The notes under the pieces: model-generated
Databases searched by the model: none
Seen by the model: the letters and a program-made list of their open reading frames with translations, nothing else
Told to the model about the DNA's origin: nothing
Program-made: the position numbers and the translations under genes
From: Bacteroidales bacterium
GTDB lineage: Bacteria > Bacteroidota > Bacteroidia > Bacteroidales > JAGOPY01
Assembly: GCA_017991835.1 (NCBI GenBank)
Contig: JAGOPY010000005.1
Location: 155,487 to 219,486 of the forward strand
Direction of reading: 5' to 3'
Length of the DNA: 64,000 bases
In this document: piece by piece, positions 2,283 to 62,932 of the stretch
Position numbering within the stretch: the stretch's first letter is position 1
Layout of the letters: the number at the start of each line of letters is the position of its first letter

Positions 2283-2286
2283 GGGG

Positions 2287-2395
2287 TCATAAGCTCACTG
2301 CGTTCGCGTCATTGGCTCACTTTGTTCGCGTCAAAAGCTCGCTGCGCGAGCGTCATAAAGTAGTCATAAAGTAGTCATTTTGTAGTAATAAGGTT
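2287..2395. repeat. REP-like repeat, locus 1: three tandem ~23-nt units (GCTCACTKCGTTCGCGTCA-like), then agtagtcataa x3
   Basis: The units are gctcactgcgttcgcgtca, gctcactttgttcgcgtca and gctcgctgcgcgagcgtca. The same family occurs at 20643-20694 (inverted) and 39849-39948. Confidence 0.8.
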
Positions 2396-2550
2396 GTTAT
2401 TTGGAATCTGGAACCTTCACCGCAGGTGATCCGATATTGAAACAGATTATATTTCAAACCGCTTGCTTTTCCCTCCGGAATAACATATCTTTAATGCGTT
2501 AATTTATCCCCCCGCATTATTAACCTTTAATCCATTGATTATGAAAACAT

Positions 2551-8768: not shown

Positions 8769-8817
8769 ATCCTTAAACCCTTAAAACCCATAAATCCTTA
8801 AATCCTTAAAACCTACA
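8769..8817. repeat. Tandem array with a ~8-nt unit (atccttaa-like, 6 units) between convergent stop codons
   Basis: Units are atccttaa, acccttaa, aacccataa, atccttaa, atccttaa, aacctaca. The array lies between the stops at 8739 and 8821. Confidence 0.8.
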
Positions 8818-11385: not shown

Positions 11386-12081
11386 TCAGACCGAGAAATA
11401 ATTCCGAAGCTCTTTAAGGGTGTTCTCTTCGGTCTGCAGGTCTTTCACGATGATCCCCTTTTCCAGGATGGCGATCCGGCTGCAGACCTCGGTCACGTGG
11501 TTGAGATCATGGCTGGAGATGAGCAGTGTTGTCCTTTTGTTTTCTTTCAACCTGTTCAGCATATTGATCAGTCTTATCTGTGATGAAGGGTCGAGGCCGT
11601 TGAAAGGTTCATCGAGGATGATGACTTCCGGATCGGCCATAAACGCTGCGGCCACGCCGATCTTTTGCTGGTTTCCTTTGGAAAGGTCGCGGATGAATTT
11701 CTTTTTCCCTAGGATCTCGTCATTAAAAAACTCCGTCATCGAATCCAGGAAAACATGCAGATCTTCCGGCGACATCCCGTGGATACGGGCATTGAAATCA
11801 AAATACTCTTCCGGCGTCAGGAAATCGATCAGGAAATTCCGGTCGAGGTAAGAACCGGTGTAAAGTTTCCAGTTCTCCGACCGCGATACATCCTGTTCTT
11901 TGGAAGTGACAAAACCGGTCTGAGGCCGGATAAGGTCGAGGATCAGGCGGAAAAGGGTTGTTTTACCCGCACCATTATTCCCGACAAGGCCGAAACTCTC
12001 ACCGGCTTTGATCTCCAGAGAGTCGATATTCAGGACGGTGACGCCAGAGTAGATTTTTGACAGATTACTTACTGAAATCAT
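11386..12081 (-). CDS. ABC transporter ATP-binding protein
   Basis: Walker A GNNGAGKTT, signature LSKGNQQK, Walker B IILDEPFNGLD. Confidence 0.9.
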   Translation of the reverse strand: MISVSNLSKIYSGVTVLNIDSLEIKAGESFGLVGNNGAGKTTLFRLILDLIRPQTGFVTSKEQDVSRSENWKLYTGSYLDRNFLIDFLTPEEYFDFNARIHGMSPEDLHVFLDSMTEFFNDEILGKKKFIRDLSKGNQQKIGVAAAFMADPEVIILDEPFNGLDPSSQIRLINMLNRLKENKRTTLLISSHDLNHVTEVCSRIAILEKGIIVKDLQTEENTLKELRNYFSV

Positions 12082-12093
12082 TGTTATACTGAT

Positions 12094-12148
12094 AAAGTGT
12101 TAAAGTGTTAAAGTGTTAAACTGGAATTGTCTTACAGTCCTACCGTCC
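12094..12148. repeat. Octamer array aaagtgtt x3 (+1 degenerate), followed by gtcctaccgtcc, whose accgtcct core is the reverse complement of the 14895 array unit
   Basis: Read directly at 12094-12125 and 12137-12148. It lies between the stop of the upstream permease (12166) and the ABC start (12081). Confidence 0.8.
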
Positions 12149-12165
12149 TAAATTCTCCCTGTTCC

Positions 12166-13740: not shown

Positions 13741-14904
13741 ATGGAAGAACAACGCATAAAAATGATTGCCAAGACCTTTGAAGGTTTTGAGGAGATACTG
13801 GCGAGGGAGCTGAGGGACCTTGGCGCGGAAGATATTGACCTGATCAAACGGGGCATTCATTTCAGCGGTGATAAGAAGTTGCTGTACATGGCCAACTACA
13901 ACTGCCGGACGGCGCTCCGCATCCTGGTACCTCTTTCAAGCTTCAGGGCATCCACTGATGCCATGCTTTACGACGGCGTCAGGGCCATCCCGTGGGAAAA
14001 GTTCCTCGATTTCCGGGGGAAATTCGCCATCGACAGCGTGATCAGCTACTCCACATTCACACATTCGGGCTATGTGTCGCTGAAAGCGAAAGATGCGATT
14101 GCCGACCGGTTCCGCGACAAATTCGGCAAACGTCCCGACGTCGATAACAACGATCCCGATCTGCGGGTCAATGTGCATATTTTCCGTGAAGAATGCACCG
14201 TATCCATCGACTCCTCAGGCGCTTCGCTCCATCTGAGGGGTTATCGCCGGGCCCAGACCGAGGCGCCGATAAACGAGGTGCTGGCCGCCGGCCTGATCCT
14301 GATGAGCGGATGGGACGGCAAAACGCCCTTTCTTGATCCCATGTGCGGTTCAGGGACGATCCTGATCGAAGCGGCGCTGATAGCCGGCAGGGTACCTCCC
14401 GGTTATTACCGGCCGCTGTTTGGCTTTGAACGATGGAAGGATTTCGACCGGAGGCTATGGGACCGGGTGAAGCGCGAATGCGAAGAGGCGATTTCGGAGC
14501 CCACTGCACCTATCATCGGCTACGACCGTGATGAAAAAGCCATCCTTGCCAGCCAGGCCAACATCGATGAAGCCGGCGTAGAGCAATTCGTCAAGGTTGA
14601 GCAGGCCGATTTCACCACTGCTTCCCCGCCCTGGCGCAGCGGATTCCTCCTCACCAATCCACCTTACGGCGAGCGGATCAAGGTGGAAGACCTGAAACAG
14701 TTTTACAAAGACATCGGCGACGTGCTGAAACAGAAATATGCCGGCTATACCGCGTGGCTGCTGGGTTCCAACGAAGAAGCCATGAAATTCATCGGCCTCC
14801 GCCCTTCCCGCCGGATCAGGGTGATGAACGGCCCGCTCGAATGCCGGCTGGCGAAGTTTGAGCTGTACGAAGGGAGAAAGGGAGATAAGACTTTAGGACG
14901 GTAG
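13741..14904 (+). CDS. THUMP-domain class I SAM-dependent RNA methyltransferase (RlmL/YpsC-like)
   Basis: N-terminal THUMP-like region (AKTFEGFEEILARELRDLGA), the SAM-binding motif DPMCGSGTILIEA, and the catalytic NPPYGERI motif. Confidence 0.85.
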   Translation: MEEQRIKMIAKTFEGFEEILARELRDLGAEDIDLIKRGIHFSGDKKLLYMANYNCRTALRILVPLSSFRASTDAMLYDGVRAIPWEKFLDFRGKFAIDSVISYSTFTHSGYVSLKAKDAIADRFRDKFGKRPDVDNNDPDLRVNVHIFREECTVSIDSSGASLHLRGYRRAQTEAPINEVLAAGLILMSGWDGKTPFLDPMCGSGTILIEAALIAGRVPPGYYRPLFGFERWKDFDRRLWDRVKRECEEAISEPTAPIIGYDRDEKAILASQANIDEAGVEQFVKVEQADFTTASPPWRSGFLLTNPPYGERIKVEDLKQFYKDIGDVLKQKYAGYTAWLLGSNEEAMKFIGLRPSRRIRVMNGPLECRLAKFELYEGRKGDKTLGR

Positions 14905-14918
14905 GACGGTAGGACTGC
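14895..14918. repeat. Octamer array aggacggt aggacggt aggactgc that contains the gene's TAG stop
   Basis: Read directly. The CDS ends ...ACT TTA GGA CGG TAG inside the array. Confidence 0.85.
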
Positions 14919-20062: not shown

Positions 20063-20113
20063 ACCAATTTCCTATTTCTGATTCAAAATGCACCATTTCT
20101 TTTTCCTTTTTCC

Positions 20114-20155
20114 CTCTTCACTCTTCACTCTTCACCCTTCACTCTTCACTCTTCC
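20114..20155. repeat. Heptamer array ctcttca x6 overlapping the moaC stop codon
   Basis: Six phased units. The moaC TGA (20146-20148) and the last residues EKRKEE are encoded within or next to the array. Confidence 0.85.
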
Positions 20156-20598
20156 TTCCTCTTCTCCACCAGCCTGATCTCCCCGATAACCATCTCTTTA
20201 TCAACCGCTTTGCACATGTCGTAAATTGTAAGGAGGGCAACGGATGCAGCGGTCAGCGCTTCCATTTCCACGCCGGTCTGTCCGACACACTTTGCCGTAG
20301 CAGTAACTGTAACACCCGAATCACCGATAGCCGTCACGACATCGATCTTTGTGATCTGAAGCGGGTGGCATAGCGGGATCAGATCAGCGGTCTTTTTTCC
20401 TGCCTGGATACCGGCGATCTGCGCTACCGTCAGCACATCGCCTTTTTTTATTTCGTTTTCCCGTATCAGCCGGATGGTCTCCGGGTTCAGGCGGATATAG
20501 CCCGTTGCTGTAGCTATCCTTAACTGTTCCGGCTTGTGGCCCACATCAACCATCCTTGCCCGGCCCGATTCATCGGTATGCGAAAAGCTGCTCCCCAT
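20146..20598 (-). CDS. moaC: Cyclic pyranopterin monophosphate synthase accessory protein
   Basis: MVDVGHKP...LIPLCHPL...GVEMEALTAASVALLTIYDMCKA is the canonical MoaC sequence. Confidence 0.93.
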   Translation of the reverse strand: MGSSFSHTDESGRARMVDVGHKPEQLRIATATGYIRLNPETIRLIRENEIKKGDVLTVAQIAGIQAGKKTADLIPLCHPLQITKIDVVTAIGDSGVTVTATAKCVGQTGVEMEALTAASVALLTIYDMCKAVDKEMVIGEIRLVEKRKEE

Positions 20599-20600
20599 AT

Positions 20601-20628
20601 TTCAAAGTTCAAAGTTCAAAGTTCAAAG
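20601..20628. repeat. Heptamer array ttcaaag x4, starting 2 nt upstream of the moaC start codon
   Basis: Read directly; it begins 2 nt from the moaC ATG (20596-20598). Confidence 0.85.
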
Positions 20629-37888: not shown

Positions 37889-37980
37889 TAATTTATTCCG
37901 GTTAAATACGACATATCGCACAGCCAATTATCTAATTTAGAATGATTCAAAATTAATTTTCATCACCCCGCCATCATTAT

Positions 37981-38092
37981 ATCAAAATATTAAAACCTCA
38001 AAATATCACAAATTCATAAAATCACAAAATCATAAGTTCAAAAAATCATAAGTTCAAAAAATCACAAAATCAAAATATCAAAATATCAATTC
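37981..38092. repeat. Phase-locked array of 14 octamers (WTCAnAAn), ending 1 nt before the AI-2E stop codon
   Basis: Parsed by hand as atcaaaat, attaaaac, ctcaaaat, atcacaaa, ttcataaa, atcacaaa, atcataag, ttcaaaaa, atcataag, ttcaaaaa, atcacaaa, atcaaaat, atcaaaat, atcaattc. Confidence 0.9.
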
Positions 38093-56037: not shown

Positions 56038-56949
56038 TTATCTGAAAAATTTCAATGGCAGCAGCATCGGTGTGTTCTTCCGGTATTCCGTGTATCCTTC
56101 CCTGCGCTGAAGGTTGCGTTTTTCAATCATAGGGATGCTGGCGAAAATGAACATCAGGGTTATGGCGACCGGGCCGGCCAGTGTCCACCAGAAATGGCAG
56201 CCTGCGGCAATGGCAAATAAAGCCAGCCCCCACCAGGTACTGATCTCTCCCAGGTAATTGGGATGGCGGCTTAAGCGCCACAGGCCGGACATGATCGTTT
56301 TTCCCTTGTTTGAGCTGTCTTTTCTGAAGTTCCTGAGCTGTTCATCCGCAACAAATACATAAACCACGCTTCCAAAAAGGATCAGGGCGGCCGGGATATC
56401 CCAGATATTCAGTGCCCTTCCTTCACCGGAAAATACGGCAAACATAGCCATGCACCCAAGGTAGACCATAATGGTCGGGAACAGGTGGATTGCCAGGAAA
56501 CTCACCACCCAGTATGCTTTTCCGCTGGATTTCCTGAAATTTACATAGCGCCAGTCTTCATGATGGAACCCGGGCCAGTCGCGGTAAAAATTCGAAGTAA
56601 GACGAAGGGCATACAGAAAAATGCCGGCAAGAACCAGCAACTGCCTGATGGTCAGGTTATCAAGATGAAATATAAAAACATAAGCTGCCGCGATCACGAT
56701 AGGTTTTACACTCCAATAGGGATCATAAGCGGAGGAATTGTTCAGGATGACCGAAAACAGAAAGACGACCACGGTGGCTGCCAGGTCTCCTGCCCCAATC
56801 ATGACCAAGGGATGATGACCGGTGAATAACCTTGCAATAAGCGCTGCGGTTATGCCGGCGATAATGTAGATCAACAGGCTGAGCACAATGCTCTGAAACC
56901 TGCTTAGTGAAGTGCTTTTCTGTTTCATTTTTAATTCATTTGCCATCAA
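56038..56949 (-). CDS. DUF1295 / steroid 5-alpha-reductase-like membrane protein
   Basis: Polytopic, with the RHPNYLGEISTWWG motif. Confidence 0.8.
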   Translation of the reverse strand: MMANELKMKQKSTSLSRFQSIVLSLLIYIIAGITAALIARLFTGHHPLVMIGAGDLAATVVVFLFSVILNNSSAYDPYWSVKPIVIAAAYVFIFHLDNLTIRQLLVLAGIFLYALRLTSNFYRDWPGFHHEDWRYVNFRKSSGKAYWVVSFLAIHLFPTIMVYLGCMAMFAVFSGEGRALNIWDIPAALILFGSVVYVFVADEQLRNFRKDSSNKGKTIMSGLWRLSRHPNYLGEISTWWGLALFAIAAGCHFWWTLAGPVAITLMFIFASIPMIEKRNLQRREGYTEYRKNTPMLLPLKFFR

Positions 56950-57061
56950 GCTACCACATCATTATAATTCACCAAAATTAATAATTCAATGACAGTTCCT
57001 GATAACATATAAATTCAATAGGATTTTTGACATGACATAGTTTGTCGAATGAAACTAACTC

Positions 57062-57103
57062 ATTAATAATTAAGCATTAAGAATTAAGAATTAAGCATTA
57101 AAA
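57062..57103. repeat. Heptamer array attaagM x6, ending 1 nt before the msrB/A stop codon
   Basis: Units are attaata, attaagc, attaaga, attaaga, attaagc, attaaaa. Confidence 0.85.
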
Positions 57104-58164: not shown

Positions 58165-58204
58165 TCGCCCGTTCGCCTGTTCGCCCGTTTACCCGTACGC
58201 TTGT
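58165..58204. repeat. Octamer array tcgcccgt x5 running into the purL stop codon
   Basis: Units are tcgcccgt, tcgcctgt, tcgcccgt, ttacccgt, acgcttgt. The purL TAA is at 58204-58206. Confidence 0.8.
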
Positions 58205-61200
58205 TAATCCCCGCATCTCGTTTCGATCCATTTTTTTGCGTTGACGAATGCTTCGATCCAGGGTGAGACCTCGTCGGAAGGGCGGCTGGCGGGATAGCTG
58301 GCCCAGTTCCAGGGATGGATGGCCCGCTCCAGGTGGGGCATCATGACCAGGTGGCGGCCATCGTGCGAACAAAGCGCAGCTGCACAGTAATCGCTTCCGT
58401 TAGGATTGCCGGGATAGCCGGTATAACTGTATTTCATCGCGATCTCATATTTGCCTTCCTCATACGGCAGGGAGAACTGCCCTTCTCCATGCGCAACCCA
58501 GATGCCCAGCCGGCTGCCGGCAAGGCTTTTCAACATAATGCTTTTGGTCTCATGAACATCCACATTAAGAAAAGCCGATTCGAACTTACCCGAAGCATTG
58601 TGCAGCATCTTCGGCATACGGGCATGCTCAGGATAGACCAGTCCCAGTTCGACCATTACCTGGCATCCGTTACAGACGCCAAGGCTAAGGGTATCATGAC
58701 GAGCGTAGAACTTATCAAGCGCTTCCCTGGCTTTAGGATTGTAAAGGAAGGCACCGGCCCAGCCCTTCGCCGAGCCCAAAACATCGCTGTTTGAAAATCC
58801 TCCGACAAACACAATGAGATTCACATCTTCCAGGTTCTCGCGGCCGGCGATAAGGTCGGTCATATGAACGTCTTTTACATCGAACCCGGCCAGGTGCATG
58901 CTCCAGGCCATCTCCCGGTCGCCGTTCACCCCTTTCTCGCGGATAATCGCGGCTTTGATGCCCGACTTTACAACCCTTGCCTGCTCAATCCCATATTGAG
59001 CAAATCTGCCGCTGAAAGAATCAGGAAACCGGAACGACAACTCCTGCTTTTTGTAATTTTCGTATCTTCTGGCAGCCAGTTCCGGTCCACACTGCTTACG
59101 ATCAAGCAGATAGGATGTTTTGTACCATGTATCCCTGAGTTCCTCAATATCAAACAAATAGGATTGTCCATCATGGCCGATTTCAATCGTACGGTTGCCG
59201 GTAACCTGACCGAGACGATAAAATCTGATCTGCTCTTTTTCAAGTAACCGAGATGCTTCGTCCGGGTCTTTCACCTGGATGATCACACCGGGTTTTTCGC
59301 TGAAAAGGATGCGGTAGATGTCCTTCTCGCCGAAAGCATCCATGTTTAGATTCATCCCGGCATCATTCCGGCCGAAAGTCATCTCCAGGAAAGTGGTAAT
59401 CATGCCGCCGGCGCTGATATCATGCCCAGCCAGGATCATCTCTTCACGTATCATATTCTGCACGGTTTCGAATGCCCGCGCAAAATATCCGGTATCAGGC
59501 ACGCCCGGAACTGCGGTGCCGATGGCGTTAACCGATTGGGCGAAACTGCTGCCCCCCAGGTGGAATCCGTCGCCCGAAAAATCGATATAAATGATGCAAC
59601 CGGCCGCCGGTTGCAACACCGGTTCCACGATCTGCCGGACATTTGCGACCTCCCCTACGGCGGAAATAATGACGGTACCCGGGGCAAAAACCTTTTGTCC
59701 GTCAGGGTATTTCTGTGTCATCGACAACGAATCTTTGCCGGTGGGTATATTGATCCCGAGGCCGATGGCAAATTCGCTGACCTTTTTAACGGCAGCAAAA
59801 AGCCTGGCGTCTTCGCCCGGATTTTTTGCCGGCCACATCCAGTTAGCGCTGAGGGATACGCCTTTCAGGCCATCTTCCAGCGGCGCCCAGACAATATTCG
59901 TTAGTGCTTCTGCAACGGCCAGCACAGATCCTTTCTCCGGATCGATCAGTCCGGCGACTGGTGCATGGCCTATTGCCGTAGCGATTCCCCTTTTTCCAAG
60001 GTAATCCATCGTCGCTACCCCCAGGTTGTTCAAAGGCAGTTGCACCGTTCCGGCACATTGCTGTTTGGCTATCCTGCCCGTCACCGACCGGTCGACCTTG
60101 TTGGTCAGCCAGTCTTTGCAGGCGACGGCTTCCAGTTGCAGGACCTGGTGCAGGGCTATCGGGAGAGACGCAGCATGCTGCGTCTTTACAGTAGCATGCG
60201 ATAGAGACGCAGCATGCTGTAGTGGAGACGCAGCATGCTGCGTCTTTACAACAGTATAGGCAGGATCCGCAAACGATGCCGGCAGGGTTGTATCGTTGAG
60301 CACCGTCCTCGGTGGTTTTCCGAGGAGGTTGGCCAGTTCGAGGTGCATAGGCTTTTCGCCTTGTGCATTGACGAAGGATAAGATATGGTCGCCGGTAGTC
60401 CTGCCGACGACGTACAGGGGAGCGCGTTCTCTTTCTGCGATCCTTTTCAGCAGCGGTAGGTCTTTTTCGCTGATGATCAGCCCCATCCGTTCCTGTGATT
60501 CATTGCCGATGATCTCTTTATCGGACAGAGTAGGATCGCCGACGGGGAGCTTTGTCATATCGATGGTTCCCCCTGTTGCCTCCACCAGTTCCGACAGGCA
60601 GTTCAGGTGGCCTCCCGCGCCATGGTCGTGGATGGAGATGACCGGGTTGGCGCCCGATTCAGCCATTGCCCGGATCGCGTTGTAGACCCGTTTCTGCATC
60701 TCGGGATTGGCGCGCTGAACGGCATTCAGTTCGATAGCGTTGCCGTATTCACCGGTAGCCACTGACGAAACCGCGCCGCCTCCCATACCGATCCGGTAGT
60801 TATCACCGCCCATGACGACGATCAGGTCGCCGGTGCCCGGAATGTCTTTAATACTGTCTTCGCGGATTCCCGTGCCGATGCCGCCGGCGAGCATGATCAC
60901 CTTGTCGTAGCCGTAAGATTTGCCGTCTTCTTCGTGCTCAAAGGTGAGCACACTTCCGCAGATCAGCGGTTGTCCGAATTTGTTGCCGAAATCGCTGGCG
61001 CCGTTGGATGCTTTGATCAGGATCTCTTCGGGGGTCTGGTAGAGCCACTTCCTGGGTTTAAGGCGCTCCTCCCAGGGTCTGCCGGGCGCCATCCTGGGAT
61101 ACGAAGTCATATAAACGGCGGTGCCGGCCAGCGGGATACTGGCTTTGCCACCGGCCATCCGGTCGCGGATCTCTCCGCCGGTACCGGTGGAAGCGCCGTT

Positions 61201-61971
61201 AAACGGCTCGACGGTCGTCGGGAAATTATGCGTTTCGGCTTTCAGGGAAATCACTGTGCTGACCGGCCTGATGCGGAAAAAATCGGCCTTGTCCTGCGTC
61301 TCCGGGGCAAATTCCTGTGCTGCCGGTCCGCTGATGAAGGCAACATTGTCTTTGTAAGCCGAGACCAGGCGGTTGGGATTCGCCTTCGAGGTTTTCTTTA
61401 TCATCGAAAAAAGGGAATCCTCCTTTACATCGCCATCAATAATAAAACTCCCGTTAAAGATCTTATGCCTGCAATGCTCCGAATTAACCTGCGCAAAGCC
61501 GTATACTTCGCTGTCGGTCAGTTTCCTGCCCAATTTTTCTGCCAGCCCTTCCAGGTAAATGACCTCTTCTTCGCTCAGGGCAAGCCCTTCCTTCAGATTA
61601 TAAGCCCTGATATCGTCGATATATAGTATCGGTTCGGGCTTATGCTCGATCGTAAAAATCTTCTGATCCAAACCTTTGTAAAGATGCTGAAGCATGGGGT
61701 CGAAAGAGTCGCCCTCCTTAAAATAGCGGAACTCCTCGATCCTTTCAATGCCTTCGATACCCATATTCTGCGTTATTTCAACCGCATTGGTGCTCCAGGG
61801 AGTGATCATCTCTTTCCGGGGTCCGATAAACTGTCCTTCGACCTGCTCCCACATGACCAACGAGGCATCCCCCAGCAACCAGGCCAGCTTTTCAAGGTCC
61901 TTCTTCGGTTGGTGAATTTTGCTGCCGATGGCATAAATGACAGAGTGGTTATTCTGATAAAAAAGGATCAT
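58204..61971 (-). CDS. purL: Phosphoribosylformylglycinamidine synthase (large single-chain FGAM synthase)
   Basis: Full-length PurL-like with a C-terminal glutaminase (GVCNGCQ...HGEG). The likely start is MILFYQNNH at 61971, 1 nt after the CDF stop; the ORF track runs to 62061. Confidence 0.93.
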   Translation of the reverse strand: MILFYQNNHSVIYAIGSKIHQPKKDLEKLAWLLGDASLVMWEQVEGQFIGPRKEMITPWSTNAVEITQNMGIEGIERIEEFRYFKEGDSFDPMLQHLYKGLDQKIFTIEHKPEPILYIDDIRAYNLKEGLALSEEEVIYLEGLAEKLGRKLTDSEVYGFAQVNSEHCRHKIFNGSFIIDGDVKEDSLFSMIKKTSKANPNRLVSAYKDNVAFISGPAAQEFAPETQDKADFFRIRPVSTVISLKAETHNFPTTVEPFNGASTGTGGEIRDRMAGGKASIPLAGTAVYMTSYPRMAPGRPWEERLKPRKWLYQTPEEILIKASNGASDFGNKFGQPLICGSVLTFEHEEDGKSYGYDKVIMLAGGIGTGIREDSIKDIPGTGDLIVVMGGDNYRIGMGGGAVSSVATGEYGNAIELNAVQRANPEMQKRVYNAIRAMAESGANPVISIHDHGAGGHLNCLSELVEATGGTIDMTKLPVGDPTLSDKEIIGNESQERMGLIISEKDLPLLKRIAERERAPLYVVGRTTGDHILSFVNAQGEKPMHLELANLLGKPPRTVLNDTTLPASFADPAYTVVKTQHAASPLQHAASLSHATVKTQHAASLPIALHQVLQLEAVACKDWLTNKVDRSVTGRIAKQQCAGTVQLPLNNLGVATMDYLGKRGIATAIGHAPVAGLIDPEKGSVLAVAEALTNIVWAPLEDGLKGVSLSANWMWPAKNPGEDARLFAAVKKVSEFAIGLGINIPTGKDSLSMTQKYPDGQKVFAPGTVIISAVGEVANVRQIVEPVLQPAAGCIIYIDFSGDGFHLGGSSFAQSVNAIGTAVPGVPDTGYFARAFETVQNMIREEMILAGHDISAGGMITTFLEMTFGRNDAGMNLNMDAFGEKDIYRILFSEKPGVIIQVKDPDEASRLLEKEQIRFYRLGQVTGNRTIEIGHDGQSYLFDIEELRDTWYKTSYLLDRKQCGPELAARRYENYKKQELSFRFPDSFSGRFAQYGIEQARVVKSGIKAAIIREKGVNGDREMAWSMHLAGFDVKDVHMTDLIAGRENLEDVNLIVFVGGFSNSDVLGSAKGWAGAFLYNPKAREALDKFYARHDTLSLGVCNGCQVMVELGLVYPEHARMPKMLHNASGKFESAFLNVDVHETKSIMLKSLAGSRLGIWVAHGEGQFSLPYEEGKYEIAMKYSYTGYPGNPNGSDYCAAALCSHDGRHLVMMPHLERAIHPWNWASYPASRPSDEVSPWIEAFVNAKKWIETRCGD
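60164..60250. repeat. 87-nt in-frame block built from a 20-nt perfect palindrome (agacgcagcatgctgcgtct, 2 full copies + 1 partial) inside purL
   Basis: gagacgcagcatgctgcgtctttaca occurs at 60164-60190 and 60224-60250, with a partial copy at 60203-60220. It encodes ...VVKTQHAASPLQHAASLSHATVKTQHAASL... Confidence 0.9.
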
Positions 61972-61972
61972 C

Positions 61973-62932
61973 TCAGGTATTTTTGGATTTTGACCTACGG
62001 GTCTTTTTAAGTTTTTGAAAATTATCTTCGGAAATCCCGAATTTTTCTTCTGCCGGATCATCGCCCACCGGTTCGGTGTGCACCATCACATCATAAACAT
62101 CGGTAAGCTCGAGTTTTATCTGCTTTTCCACCTGGTGAGCCAGCTGATGGGCCGTTTTGAGCGGCATATCGCCATCGACTTCAATATCGACGGCAACCAT
62201 ATACTGGTGCCCTATTTTACGGATCCTGGTACGATGTGGATTAGAAGCCCCTTCTACCTTCGATATCGCTTTGAATACCCTGTCGTAAACGCTCTCATCA
62301 TCCACACCATCCATTAGCTGCAGCGAAGATTCCCGGAAAATTCTGAATGCCAGGTAAATGATCCAGCCACTCACGACAAGAGCTGTAATCTTGTCGAAAA
62401 CAGGCATTTTCATCACGAAAGTAAAAACCAGTCCTATTAAAACTGCCAGGGATATGACCACATCTCCCATCATGTTTTTTCCATTGGCCTGAAGCATAAG
62501 GCTGCCGGTTTTTTTACCGATGGTGTACTGGTACCAGGCGAGCAAAACTTTTCCCATGATGGAGAACACAGTCACATAAACAGCCAGCATCGACGGCATG
62601 ACCGACTTTTCGCCTTCAATGAGGTGGTTGATCGTCGTGATGGCAAGCTGTGCCCCGGCAAAGAAGATGATAAAAGAGAGCACTTTGGAGGCAATCGTGT
62701 CGGCCCGTTCATAACCATAGACATACTTCAGGTTCGGCGGGCGGGAAATGACCCGGGCTGTGACCAGGGTGATAGCTGATGCGATGATATCGCCGGCCGA
62801 ATCGATCCCATCCGCCAAAACGGCCATGGATCCGGAAATCAACCCTATAAAGATTTTAAGCACCGACAGGAGAGCGTTTCCGGCGATGCTGACCCAGGAG
62901 GCACGGACGATCTGCTTCTCCCGGTTCTCCAT
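61973..62932 (-). CDS. Cation diffusion facilitator family transporter
   Basis: MENREKQIVRASWVSIAGNALLSVLK..., SMAVLADGIDSAGD, six TM segments and a cytoplasmic C-terminal domain. The ORF track extends to 62968. Confidence 0.88.
   Translation of the reverse strand: MENREKQIVRASWVSIAGNALLSVLKIFIGLISGSMAVLADGIDSAGDIIASAITLVTARVISRPPNLKYVYGYERADTIASKVLSFIIFFAGAQLAITTINHLIEGEKSVMPSMLAVYVTVFSIMGKVLLAWYQYTIGKKTGSLMLQANGKNMMGDVVISLAVLIGLVFTFVMKMPVFDKITALVVSGWIIYLAFRIFRESSLQLMDGVDDESVYDRVFKAISKVEGASNPHRTRIRKIGHQYMVAVDIEVDGDMPLKTAHQLAHQVEKQIKLELTDVYDVMVHTEPVGDDPAEEKFGISEDNFQKLKKTRRSKSKNT

What the first reader, a model, noticed from the sequence alone, without database searches (positions are those of the whole stretch)
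60164..60250. 87-nt palindrome cassette inserted in frame into purL
The 20-nt perfect palindrome agacgcagcatgctgcgtct occurs twice, each time followed by ttaca, with a truncated copy between them. Together they form 29 in-frame codons (VVKTQHAASPLQHAASLSHATVKTQHAASL). The cassette lies just upstream of the conserved ...LQLEAVACKDWLTNKVDRSVTG segment. From my memory of the E. coli enzyme, that places it in the flexible linker ahead of the second FGAM synthetase subdomain. An essential single-copy gene tolerating a structured repeat is notable. The mRNA would carry two strong hairpins with 10-bp GC-rich stems, and the DNA could extrude cruciforms.
Basis: partly seen in the sequence, partly recalled or inferred. 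Interest (0 to 1): 0.65.

Follow-up and report, generated by a model that had tools for sequence, protein, structure and literature searches.

The report
Palindromic REP repeats inside purL
A cluster of small hairpin-forming repeats (GTAG-type REP elements, known from many bacteria) sits in frame in a disordered linker of the purine enzyme PurL of a wastewater Bacteroidales bacterium; it is real and varies between strains, but repeats of this kind inside genes, purL included, have been described before.

Summary
The 20-nt perfect palindrome AGACGCAGCATGCTGCGTCT occurs at 60166-60185 and 60226-60245, with a truncated copy between. All lie in frame in purL (minus strand) and double a linker from 26 to 52 aa. 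Two other public runs assembled the same sequence without a difference.

The units are decayed members of a repeat family whose consensus is GTAGAGACGCAGCATGCTGCGTCTCTAC, a GTAG-tagged REP. The 18-nt core is multi-copy in genomes from many phyla. In 2 of 120 sampled loci it lies in or beside a REP-associated tyrosine transposase (RAYT)-like gene.

Among 121 close PurL sequences, every insertion of 5 aa or more but one is REP-encoded. They fall at two junctions between subdomains: this one, and a second at about aa 816-822, which is empty in the window. Strains with 97% or higher PurL identity carry at least five cassette alleles: a 33-nt flip, unit deletions and duplications, and presence or absence of the second-site insert.

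No REP-type hairpin was found in about 183 kb of DNA flanking purL, and no RAYT gene in the loci searched (all but L127 and L128).

Most likely this is a tolerated, selfish or relic insertion reshaped by palindrome instability. REPs inside genes are already described (Di Nocera 2013), including two dimers in Opitutus terrae purL. It is a new member of a known kind, of moderate interest.

The parts
58204..61971 (-). purL (phosphoribosylformylglycinamidine synthase), 1255 aa from the start MILFYQ. The mechanical ORF runs on to 62061.
   Evidence: ORF. PDB PurL hits at E 1e-202 to 1e-214. Pfam FGAR-AT_N, linker, AIRS_C, PurM_N-like and GATase_5. The identical 1255-aa database protein P0122 starts at MILFYQ.
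60162..60249 (-). REP cassette: three to four decayed GTAG-type REP units in frame, encoding about VVKTQHAASPLQHAASLSHATVKTQHAASL.
60222..60249 (-). Unit 1 in coding order: GTAAAGACGCAGCATGCTGCGTCTCCAC. It differs from the family consensus GTAGAGACGCAGCATGCTGCGTCTCTAC at 2 of 28 positions, and its tag is GTAA, not GTAG.
   Evidence: Sequence; consensus from 120 loci.
60201..60219 (-). Half unit: CAGCATGCTGCGTCTCTAT, the 3' arm of a REP.
60190..60200 (-). Remnant CGCATGCTACT: the loop GCATGC plus CTAC, with the stem lost.
   Evidence: Read from the sequence. The reading as a remnant is inference.
60162..60189 (-). Unit 3 in coding order: GTAAAGACGCAGCATGCTGCGTCTCTCC.
   Evidence: The sister strain L121 has GTAGAGACGCAGCATACTGCGTCTCTCC here.
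60209..60241 (.). 33-nt segment that is reverse-complemented in sister strains. Its unique core is 60220-60230, TAGTGGAGACG on the + strand. It is bounded by the self-complementary CAGCATGCTG centres.
   Evidence: Alignment with L121. The flipped form also appears in contigs of runs X5, X6, X7 and X12.
59592..59618 (-). Second REP hot spot, empty in this window. It is a palindrome with a 13-bp stem (1 mismatch), TGTTGCAACCGGC G GCCGGTTGCATCA, centred at about 59605 and encoding LQPAAGCI. Relatives carry 1-3 REP units exactly at its centre.

Best explanation
The cassette is a cluster of decayed GTAG-tagged REP elements. These are short hairpin-forming repeats of the kind that REP-associated tyrosine transposases (RAYTs) act on as single-stranded DNA. 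The cluster became inserted in purL at a junction between two subdomains and has been kept as a passenger. Three steps are proposed. (1) Origin, inferred: one or more REP units entered purL in an ancestor of this Bacteroidales clade, at two loops between PurM-like subdomains. (2) Filter, partly shown: purL is presumably needed for de novo purine synthesis, so only stop-free versions that are a multiple of three survive. The palindrome has one frame with a stop (G-TAG or G-TAA). All PurL copies use the frame V-E/K-T-x-x-x-x-S-L. The peptide lies in a predicted disordered linker, so the enzyme tolerates it. (3) Turnover, shown as outcomes with the mechanism inferred: each palindromic centre is at once a direct and an inverted repeat of the others. 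Replication slippage, template switching and bypass across a hairpin base would then give unit deletions (39 nt), duplications (21-nt units), a 33-nt flip, and loss of the whole insert at the second site. No transposase is needed for this step. The window's own units carry GTAA instead of GTAG. By analogy with tested RAYTs, they are probably no longer substrates for cleavage. No function for the host is implied.
For: My estimate of the chance expectation is about 9, from 596 Gb divided by 4^18. The core is multi-copy in single MAGs of Acidobacteriota, Roseiflexaceae, Rhodothermales, Prevotellaceae, Anaerolineae and Spirochaetota. The flanks give the consensus GTAG[A/G]-core, with GTAGA or GTAGG on 139 of 252 arms.

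RAYT link: RAYT-like ORFs lie at the REP in L016 and L057. They match NCBIfam REP_Tyr_transpos at E 1.8e-13 and 6e-20, and Pfam Y1_Tnp.

Insertion and not native sequence: 110 of 121 PurLs have the short linker. All insertions of 5 aa or more in these PurLs, apart from one duplication in P0054, are REP-encoded and lie at two sites. DNA of five relatives shows REP palindromes with other stem or loop variants at the same sites.

Tolerated location: Pfam domain limits and AF2 pLDDT below 50 with coil.

Turnover: the 33-nt flip. Alleles A, B, B', C and D occur among PurLs of 97% or higher identity where measured, in a database cluster built at 90% identity. A 66-nt insert is present or absent at site 2 between strains about 98.5% identical in DNA. 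A deleted remnant sits at site 1 in an 81%-identical orthologue.

Precedent: intragenic GTAG REPs, mostly dimers or groups encoding 20-30 aa, including two dimers in Opitutus terrae purL (PMC3733652). Role of GTAG in cleavage by RAYTs: PMC8266576.
Against: No RAYT gene was found in the 64-kb window or in loci L121-L126 (tblastn; L127 and L128 were fetched later and not searched). No REP-type hairpin lies outside purL in about 60 kb of the window plus 123 kb of relatives' flanks. This lineage is therefore not visibly REP-rich, which is unusual for a REP family. The window's units have GTAA, not GTAG. Different stem or loop variants at the same two sites in different lineages need either several independent insertions, which would imply targeting that is not shown, or change in place that keeps the palindrome. 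Transcription across the cassette and translation of the peptide were not demonstrated: RNA contigs stop at its edges.
Confidence: 0.75

Rival explanations
1. Functional structure: the hairpins are kept because they slow the ribosome, or otherwise regulate purL mRNA, at the boundaries between PurM-like subdomains. This could aid co-translational folding. Alternatively the encoded peptide could serve as a useful flexible linker.
For: Both hot spots are at subdomain junctions. The structure is very stable: -57 kcal/mol, z -9.7. REP units recur at the same two junctions in several lineages and are not seen in the flanking DNA. O. terrae purL also carries two REP dimers.
Against: About 90% of close orthologues lack any insert. 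The window itself lacks the site-2 insert that its 98.5%-identical sister has. Alleles differ by flips, unit losses and different REP types, so neither a defined peptide nor a defined fold is conserved. The peptide is predicted to be disordered. Recurrence at junctions is equally expected from selection that merely filters for harmless positions.
Confidence: 0.07
2. Local origin: the palindromes arose in place by duplication and quasi-palindrome (template-switch) mutation of native purL sequence. No mobile element was involved.
For: The site-2 outer arms (TTGCAACCGGC / GCCGGTTGCA) resemble a perfected version of the native sequence, CAACCTGCCGGTGG in L128. All later changes between alleles can be explained by palindrome instability.
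Against: The units match, at 26 of 28 positions, a consensus that is multi-copy in unrelated phyla. That consensus lies beside or within RAYT-like genes in two loci. Independent local origin of the same 28-mer is not credible.
Confidence: 0.03
3. Import by recombination: the REP-bearing purL segments move between related strains or species by homologous recombination (allele exchange). New transposition is not needed, and this would explain why REPs are seen only in purL.
For: Run X5 holds a roughly 92-94% identical lineage carrying a different REP type (GCAAAATTTTGC) at site 2, beside a near-identical lineage. P0124 and P0128 combine site-1 allele C with a three-unit ETQNFAS site-2 allele and several nearby substitutions. 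No RAYT or extragenic REP was seen locally.
Against: This explains spread, not origin, since the first insertion still needs a source. No recombination breakpoints were mapped. It is compatible with the main explanation as an added process.
Confidence: 0.12
4. Assembly artefact: the palindromic block is a chimera created by the assembler.
For: Short-read graph assemblies often break at palindromes. Contigs of runs X5, X7, X8 and X10 do end at the cassette and at 59605.
Against: Contigs from runs X1 and X3 span it with 0 differences. X6 and X12 span the flipped allele. L121, L198 and L220 carry intact in-frame sister alleles. The inverted repeats that bound the flip are only about 15 nt, shorter than the k-mers used, so orientation is resolved. 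All alleles keep the reading frame.
Confidence: 0.02

Closest known systems
GTAG-tagged REPs located inside genes (Di Nocera, De Gregorio and Rocco 2013, BMC Genomics 14:522; PMC3733652)
   Same: A short perfect palindrome with a 5' GTAG tag. The repeats are grouped or dimeric and encode 20-30 aa in frame in proteins of known function. Their Additional file 3 lists Opitutus terrae purL (Oter_3711) with two GTAG-17 dimers.
   Different: The sequence family differs: no paper in the library holds GACGCAGCATGCTGCGTC or the peptides. The host is a Bacteroidales MAG that shows no extragenic copies in the DNA sampled. The window's tags are mutated to GTAA. Strain-level flip and indel alleles and two recurrent hot spots in one gene are documented here.
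REP/REPIN-RAYT systems (E. coli TnpA-REP, Pseudomonas REPINs; PMC8266576, PMC2817692, PMC3116915)
   Same: A GTAG tag followed by a hairpin. The repeat is multi-copy within genomes. RAYT-like Y1 transposase genes lie at REP copies in two sampled loci.
   Different: Classical REPs are extragenic, number in the hundreds per genome, and are usually specific to a lineage. Here the same 28-mer is found across phyla. In this host it is seen only in purL, and no RAYT was found nearby.
Rickettsia palindromic elements (RPE)
   Same: Palindromic repeats inserted in frame in genes for functional proteins and tolerated at surface positions (cited in PMC3733652).
   Different: Most RPEs are longer elements (per PMC3733652, RPE-1 inserts are longer palindromes, while RPE-4 and RPE-6 correspond to its CGTC REPs). 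They are unrelated in sequence, are not GTAG-tagged, and are known from Rickettsia.
Palindrome and quasi-palindrome instability (hairpin-mediated slippage and template switching; general knowledge)
   Same: It accounts for the observed deletions between palindrome centres, the tandem 21-nt units, the 33-nt inversion, and the perfected outer arms at site 2.
   Different: It is a process, not an element family. It does not explain where the REP units came from.

Membership tests
GTAG-tagged REP superfamily | A short (20-40 bp) palindrome able to form a stable stem-loop | tested here: met
   The window has two 20-nt perfect palindromes with 10-bp arms. The family consensus is a 28-nt palindrome. 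Fold z-scores are -9.7 for RNA and -8.3 for DNA.
GTAG-tagged REP superfamily | A conserved GTAG tetranucleotide at the 5' foot of the stem | tested here: inconclusive
   Family-wide, GTAGA or GTAGG is on 139 of 252 arms. The window's two full units read GTAA. The sister allele L121 has GTAG in unit 3 and in both site-2 units. So the feature is met by the family and by sister alleles, and mutated in the window's own copies.
GTAG-tagged REP superfamily | Many copies dispersed in the host genome | tested here: not met
   No REP-type hairpin lies outside purL in the 64-kb window. None lies in 123 kb flanking purL in eight relatives. The whole genome could not be searched. Other genomes do hold many copies.
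GTAG-tagged REP superfamily | Extragenic location, usually downstream of ORFs | tested here: not met
   The copies are in frame inside purL. Intragenic exceptions are documented for this superfamily (PMC3733652). In other phyla most copies of this core look extragenic or lie at ORF ends: 100 of 129 lack 60 or more open codons on both sides.
REP-RAYT system (REPtron) | A cognate RAYT (Y1 HUH transposase) gene flanked by the REP | tested here: inconclusive
   Two of 120 loci from other genomes qualify. L057 has a RAYT-like ORF with the REP 92 nt downstream. L016 has a RAYT-like ORF carrying the REP in frame. NCBIfam NF047646 scores are 71.6 and 50.6 bits, below the 80-bit cut-off. None was found in the window or L121-L126.
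REP-RAYT system (REPtron) | Cleavage or mobilisation of the REP by the RAYT | not testable with these tools
   This needs an in vitro cleavage and strand-transfer assay, as in PMC8266576.
MITE | Terminal inverted repeats of a degenerate IS, target-site duplication, 70-300 bp | tested here: not met
   Units are 28 nt. No direct duplication flanks the 66-nt site-2 insert in L121 compared with the empty window site. The flanks there are inverted, not direct.
CRISPR array | Regular repeats of 24-48 nt separated by unique spacers of similar length, non-coding | tested here: not met
   Spacing is 39 and 21 nt, with 2-13 nt between units. The block is in frame inside purL.
Large PurL (FGAM synthetase), host gene | Domain order N-terminal, linker, two PurM-like halves, triad glutaminase | tested here: met
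   Pfam domains in order. Full-length alignment to PDB PurL chains.

The most novel reading that the evidence does not exclude
The two subdomain junctions of purL are true preferred insertion or retention sites for GTAG-REP hairpins. This would hold in a lineage that otherwise carries none: 0 in about 183 kb of flanking DNA, against about 20 units in nine purL genes. An unrelated phylum, O. terrae, also carries REP dimers in purL. That would mean either sequence- or structure-directed targeting, or a selected role of the hairpins in purL expression or folding. For targeting, the site-2 inserts sit exactly at the centre of a hairpin-prone CAACCGGC|GCCGGTTG sequence.
Probability: 0.12. Interest if true: 0.6.

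Novelty: new member of a known kind. Interest (0 to 1): 0.4.

Why it matters
It shows that an enzyme the cell presumably needs for purine synthesis can carry, at two junctions between subdomains, a fast-changing block of selfish palindromic DNA that is translated into a disordered peptide. The natural series of alleles (none, one, two or three units, flipped, partly deleted) within one species is a ready-made test set. It can be used to ask how much insertion PurL linkers tolerate and how palindromes rearrange in living cells. For annotation, peptides such as VETQHAASL, VETLHATSL and ETQNFASL in proteins from many phyla should be read as REP-derived, not as conserved motifs. These palindromes also break short-read assemblies. 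The cross-phylum identity of the 28-mer, and its presence only in purL in this lineage, remain unexplained and could bear on how REPs spread and persist.

Tried and rejected
1. A protein-database search with the cassette peptide returned no candidates. The aim was to list other REP-decorated proteins.

2. Rfam gave only sub-threshold microRNA or snoRNA hits typical of any long hairpin, and no real family.

3. The literature search for the exact DNA or peptide strings, and for the assembly accessions, found nothing.

4. Metatranscriptome contigs cover purL on both sides but stop at the cassette edges. Transcription through it is neither shown nor excluded, and no spliced-out form was seen.

5. 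The viral-contig scan found only 2 hits, so there is no sign of phage carriage.

6. The metagenome scan for the GTAAA-tagged variant returned 101 loci. Only 3 are this species, all purL. The rest are unrelated, mostly soil organisms, so no further copies could be assigned to the host.

7. A crude HUH-motif screen of ORFs next to REPs found no RAYT, but it did find MutM carrying the REP. tblastn with published RAYT sequences then found two.

8. CRISPR, MITE, intein-like and assembly-artefact readings were considered and rejected (see membership tests and rivals).

9. None of the 120 REP loci from other phyla is a purL.
Full report
**1.

Reading window 59900-60500 shows the 20-nt perfect palindrome AGACGCAGCATGCTGCGTCT at 60166-60185 and 60226-60245. 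Each copy is followed by TTACA, and a truncated copy (AGACGCAGCATGCTG) ends at 60219. A search allowing 3 mismatches finds only these two full copies in 64 kb; 100 dinucleotide-preserving shuffles gave none. The 12-nt core search and the repeat finder agree.

The block lies inside the ORF 58204..62061 on the minus strand. That ORF is the large PurL. It aligns over its full length to human and Salmonella PurL structures (E 1e-202 to 1e-214) and has the expected Pfam domain order. The database copy of this very protein (P0122, 1255 aa) starts at MILFYQ, so the CDS is 58204..61971. On the coding strand the cassette reads TVVKTQHAASPLQHAASLSHATVKTQHAASL and stays in frame.

**2. It is an insertion in a disordered linker**

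In an alignment of the window protein with its 120 best database homologues, the stretch between GKPPKTV and VLQLEAVACKDW is 26 aa in 110 sequences. It is 52 aa in the window and in its 97%-identical relative P0001.

Pfam places AIRS_C at aa 410-560 and FGAR-AT_PurM_N-like at 649-802. The cassette (aa 604-633) is therefore in the segment between the first and second PurM-like halves. An AlphaFold2 model of aa 215-1010 (mean pLDDT 74.8, pTM 0.83) gives coil with pLDDT below 50 for the cassette residues. A helix starts immediately after them.

**3. It is not an assembly artefact**

The organism lives in wastewater, activated sludge and biofilm metagenomes. Logan contigs of 13 kb and 47 kb from two runs cover 59400-60900 with no difference. 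Contigs from two other studies span the cassette in a sister allele. MAG and metagenome contigs L121, L198 and L220 carry intact in-frame variants. In several other runs the contigs end at the palindromes, as expected for graph assemblers.

**4. What the units are**

My estimate of the chance expectation is about 9, from 596 Gb divided by 4^18.

- Many copies come from single MAGs of Acidobacteriota, Roseiflexaceae, Rhodothermales, Prevotellaceae, Anaerolineae and Spirochaetota. There are single hits in candidate-phyla-radiation (CPR) bacteria and other groups.
- The flanks give the consensus GTAG[A/G]GACGCAGCATGCTGCGTC[T/C]CTAC. GTAGA or GTAGG is present on 139 of 252 arms, often on one side only.
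- A GTAG tetranucleotide at the foot of a perfect hairpin is the hallmark of the GTAG-tagged REP superfamily (PMC3733652). It is also the recognition and guide element of REP-associated tyrosine transposases (RAYTs) (PMC8266576).
- Using RAYT sequences from that paper's supplement as tblastn queries, I found RAYT-like ORFs at the REP in two of the 120 loci. In L057 the REP lies 92 nt downstream. In L016 the REP is itself inserted in frame just after the HUH motif.
- Both ORFs match NCBIfam REP_Tyr_transpos (E 6e-20 and 1.8e-13, below the curated cut-off because inserts split the match) and Pfam Y1_Tnp.

The window's units are GTAAAGACGCAGCATGCTGCGTCTCCAC and GTAAAGACGCAGCATGCTGCGTCTCTCC. Each matches the consensus at 26 of 28 positions, with the tag mutated to GTAA. 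Between them lie a half unit and a loop remnant.

**5. Two hot spots in purL**

In the 121-sequence alignment, every insertion of 5 aa or more, apart from one internal duplication in P0054, is REP-encoded. All lie at one of two places: the cassette site, and a second site at about aa 816-822, just after the PurM_N-like domain.

DNA of relatives confirms REP palindromes with different stem or loop variants.

- Site 1: GTAAAGACGCAAGATATTGCGTCTTTAC (L123) and GTAGATACGAAGCATGCTTCGTCCCTAC (L125).
- Site 2: GTAGAGACGTTGCATGCAACGTCTCTAC (L121 twice, L123, L125), GTAGAGACGCAAAATTTTGCGTCTGTAC (L122), and two units in L126.
- An 81%-identical orthologue keeps a deleted remnant of the window's type at site 1: CCTGCGTCTCCACAACAGCATGCTGCGTCTCAAC. 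The insertion is therefore older than that split.
- All PurL copies use the frame V-E/K-T-...-S-L. The next frame contains TAG or TAA. The third frame (RDAACCVST) is seen in long open reading frames of other phyla but not in PurL.

The window is empty at site 2. There it has the longest other palindrome of the window: TGTTGCAACCGGC-G-GCCGGTTGCATCA, 59592-59618.

- The sister strain L121 is about 98.5% identical in DNA. It has a 66-nt two-unit insert exactly at the centre of this palindrome.
- L125 has one unit between the same outer arms, with the right arm read in another frame.
- Insert-free orthologues (L127, L128) have only a weak quasi-palindrome there.
- I infer that the window allele is a secondary loss across the base of the hairpin.

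**6. Strain-level variation**

PurLs at 97% or higher identity, from a database cluster built at 90% identity and labelled 'Bacteroidales bacterium', show these site-1 alleles:

| Allele | Found in | Peptide |
|---|---|---|
| A | window, P0122 | KTQHAASPLQHAASLSHATVKTQHAASL |
| B | P0001 | KTQHAVVETQHAASLSHATVETQHTASL |
| B' | P0125 | as B, with VKTQHAASL at the end |
| C | P0121, P0124, P0128, P0129, L198, L220 | KTQHAASPLQHAASPLQHAASL (tandem 21-nt units) |
| D | P0123, P0131-P0133 | KTQHAVVETQHAASLHDTLHN |

Allele D fits contigs that join 60180 to TAGTGGAGACGCAG, which skips one 39-nt unit.

A and B differ by reverse-complementing a 33-nt segment whose ends are the self-complementary CAGCATGCTG centres. 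The flipped form occurs in at least four studies. The flanking inverted repeat is only about 15 nt, shorter than the assemblers' k-mers, so orientation is resolved.

Site 2 has three states: no insert (window and its study only), two VETLHAT units (most strains), or three ETQNFAS units (P0124, P0128).

**7. What is unusual**

Within the window (about 60 kb outside purL) and 123 kb flanking purL in eight relatives there is no REP-type hairpin. tblastn found no RAYT in the window or in L121-L126. The nine purL genes sampled hold about 20 units.

The published catalogue of intragenic REPs lists Opitutus terrae purL with two REP dimers. Whether purL junctions are merely the safest places for such DNA to survive, or are targeted, cannot be decided here.

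**8. Structure and expression**

The coding-strand RNA folds to -57.1 kcal/mol (z -9.7). The optimum is a 20-bp stem pairing unit 1 with unit 3. As DNA the value is -33.7 kcal/mol (z -8.3). Rfam has no matching family. Metatranscriptome contigs show purL is transcribed on both sides of the cassette but do not cross it.

**9. Verdict**

The cassette is best explained as a decayed cluster of GTAG-type REP elements carried in frame at a permissive junction between subdomains. It is reshaped by palindrome-driven deletion, duplication and inversion.

The kind is known. Intragenic GTAG REPs, typically dimers or groups encoding 20-30 aa, have been described, including in a purL (PMC3733652). New here are:

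- this sequence family;
- its identity across phyla;
- the two recurrent hot spots;
- the allelic series, including a flip;
- the apparent confinement to purL in this lineage.

Noticed in passing
window 59592-59618: A palindrome with a 13-bp stem lies inside purL and encodes LQPAAGCI. It marks the empty second REP hot spot. Sister strains carry a 66-nt two-unit insert, or a three-unit insert, exactly at its centre.
   Followed up: yes
window 2286-2402, 8771-8814, 12082-12150, 14870-14915, 20099-20164, 20601-20628, 37979-38089, 57062-57101, 58165-58200: Many short tandem arrays with 7-8 nt units, 3-14 copies each, for example ATATCAAA x14, TTCACTC x6 and TTCAAAG x4. Nearly all lie outside long open frames. 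One array (TCGCCCGT x4.5) lies directly after the purL stop codon. Their nature is unknown.
   Followed up: partly
window 56947-57095: An AT-rich intergenic stretch of about 150 nt, containing the ATTAAGA array, does not align with the 98.5%-identical strain L121. L121 has only about 20 nt there. This is a second strain-variable spot.
   Followed up: no
L016 4082-5134 (minus strand): A RAYT-like Y1 transposase gene in a Rhodothermales MAG carries the same REP (VETQHAASL) in frame just after its HUH motif.
   Followed up: partly
L017 3953-4816; L059 near 3489; L010 near 1705; L048 near 2346: The same REP core lies in frame in other real genes of other phyla: Fpg/MutM (Acidobacteria), a sensor histidine kinase (Mariniphaga), a membrane protein (Anaerolineaceae), and a Bacteroidales protein with three REP-like peptides. 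These proteins were identified by eye and not confirmed with Pfam.
   Followed up: partly
L127 about 11750-11800 (purL site 1 of P0010): A normal-length linker reads ...YNTASLQDYL, with DNA ACGGCGTCTTTGCAG. This resembles the 3' arm of a REP and may be the scar of an old, almost precise excision. P0019 and P0052 share ASLQ.
   Followed up: partly
window 61972-62061: The mechanical purL ORF extends 30 codons upstream (MIRQKK...) of the start used in database entries (MILFYQ). One JGI call (P0128) uses the long form.
   Followed up: no
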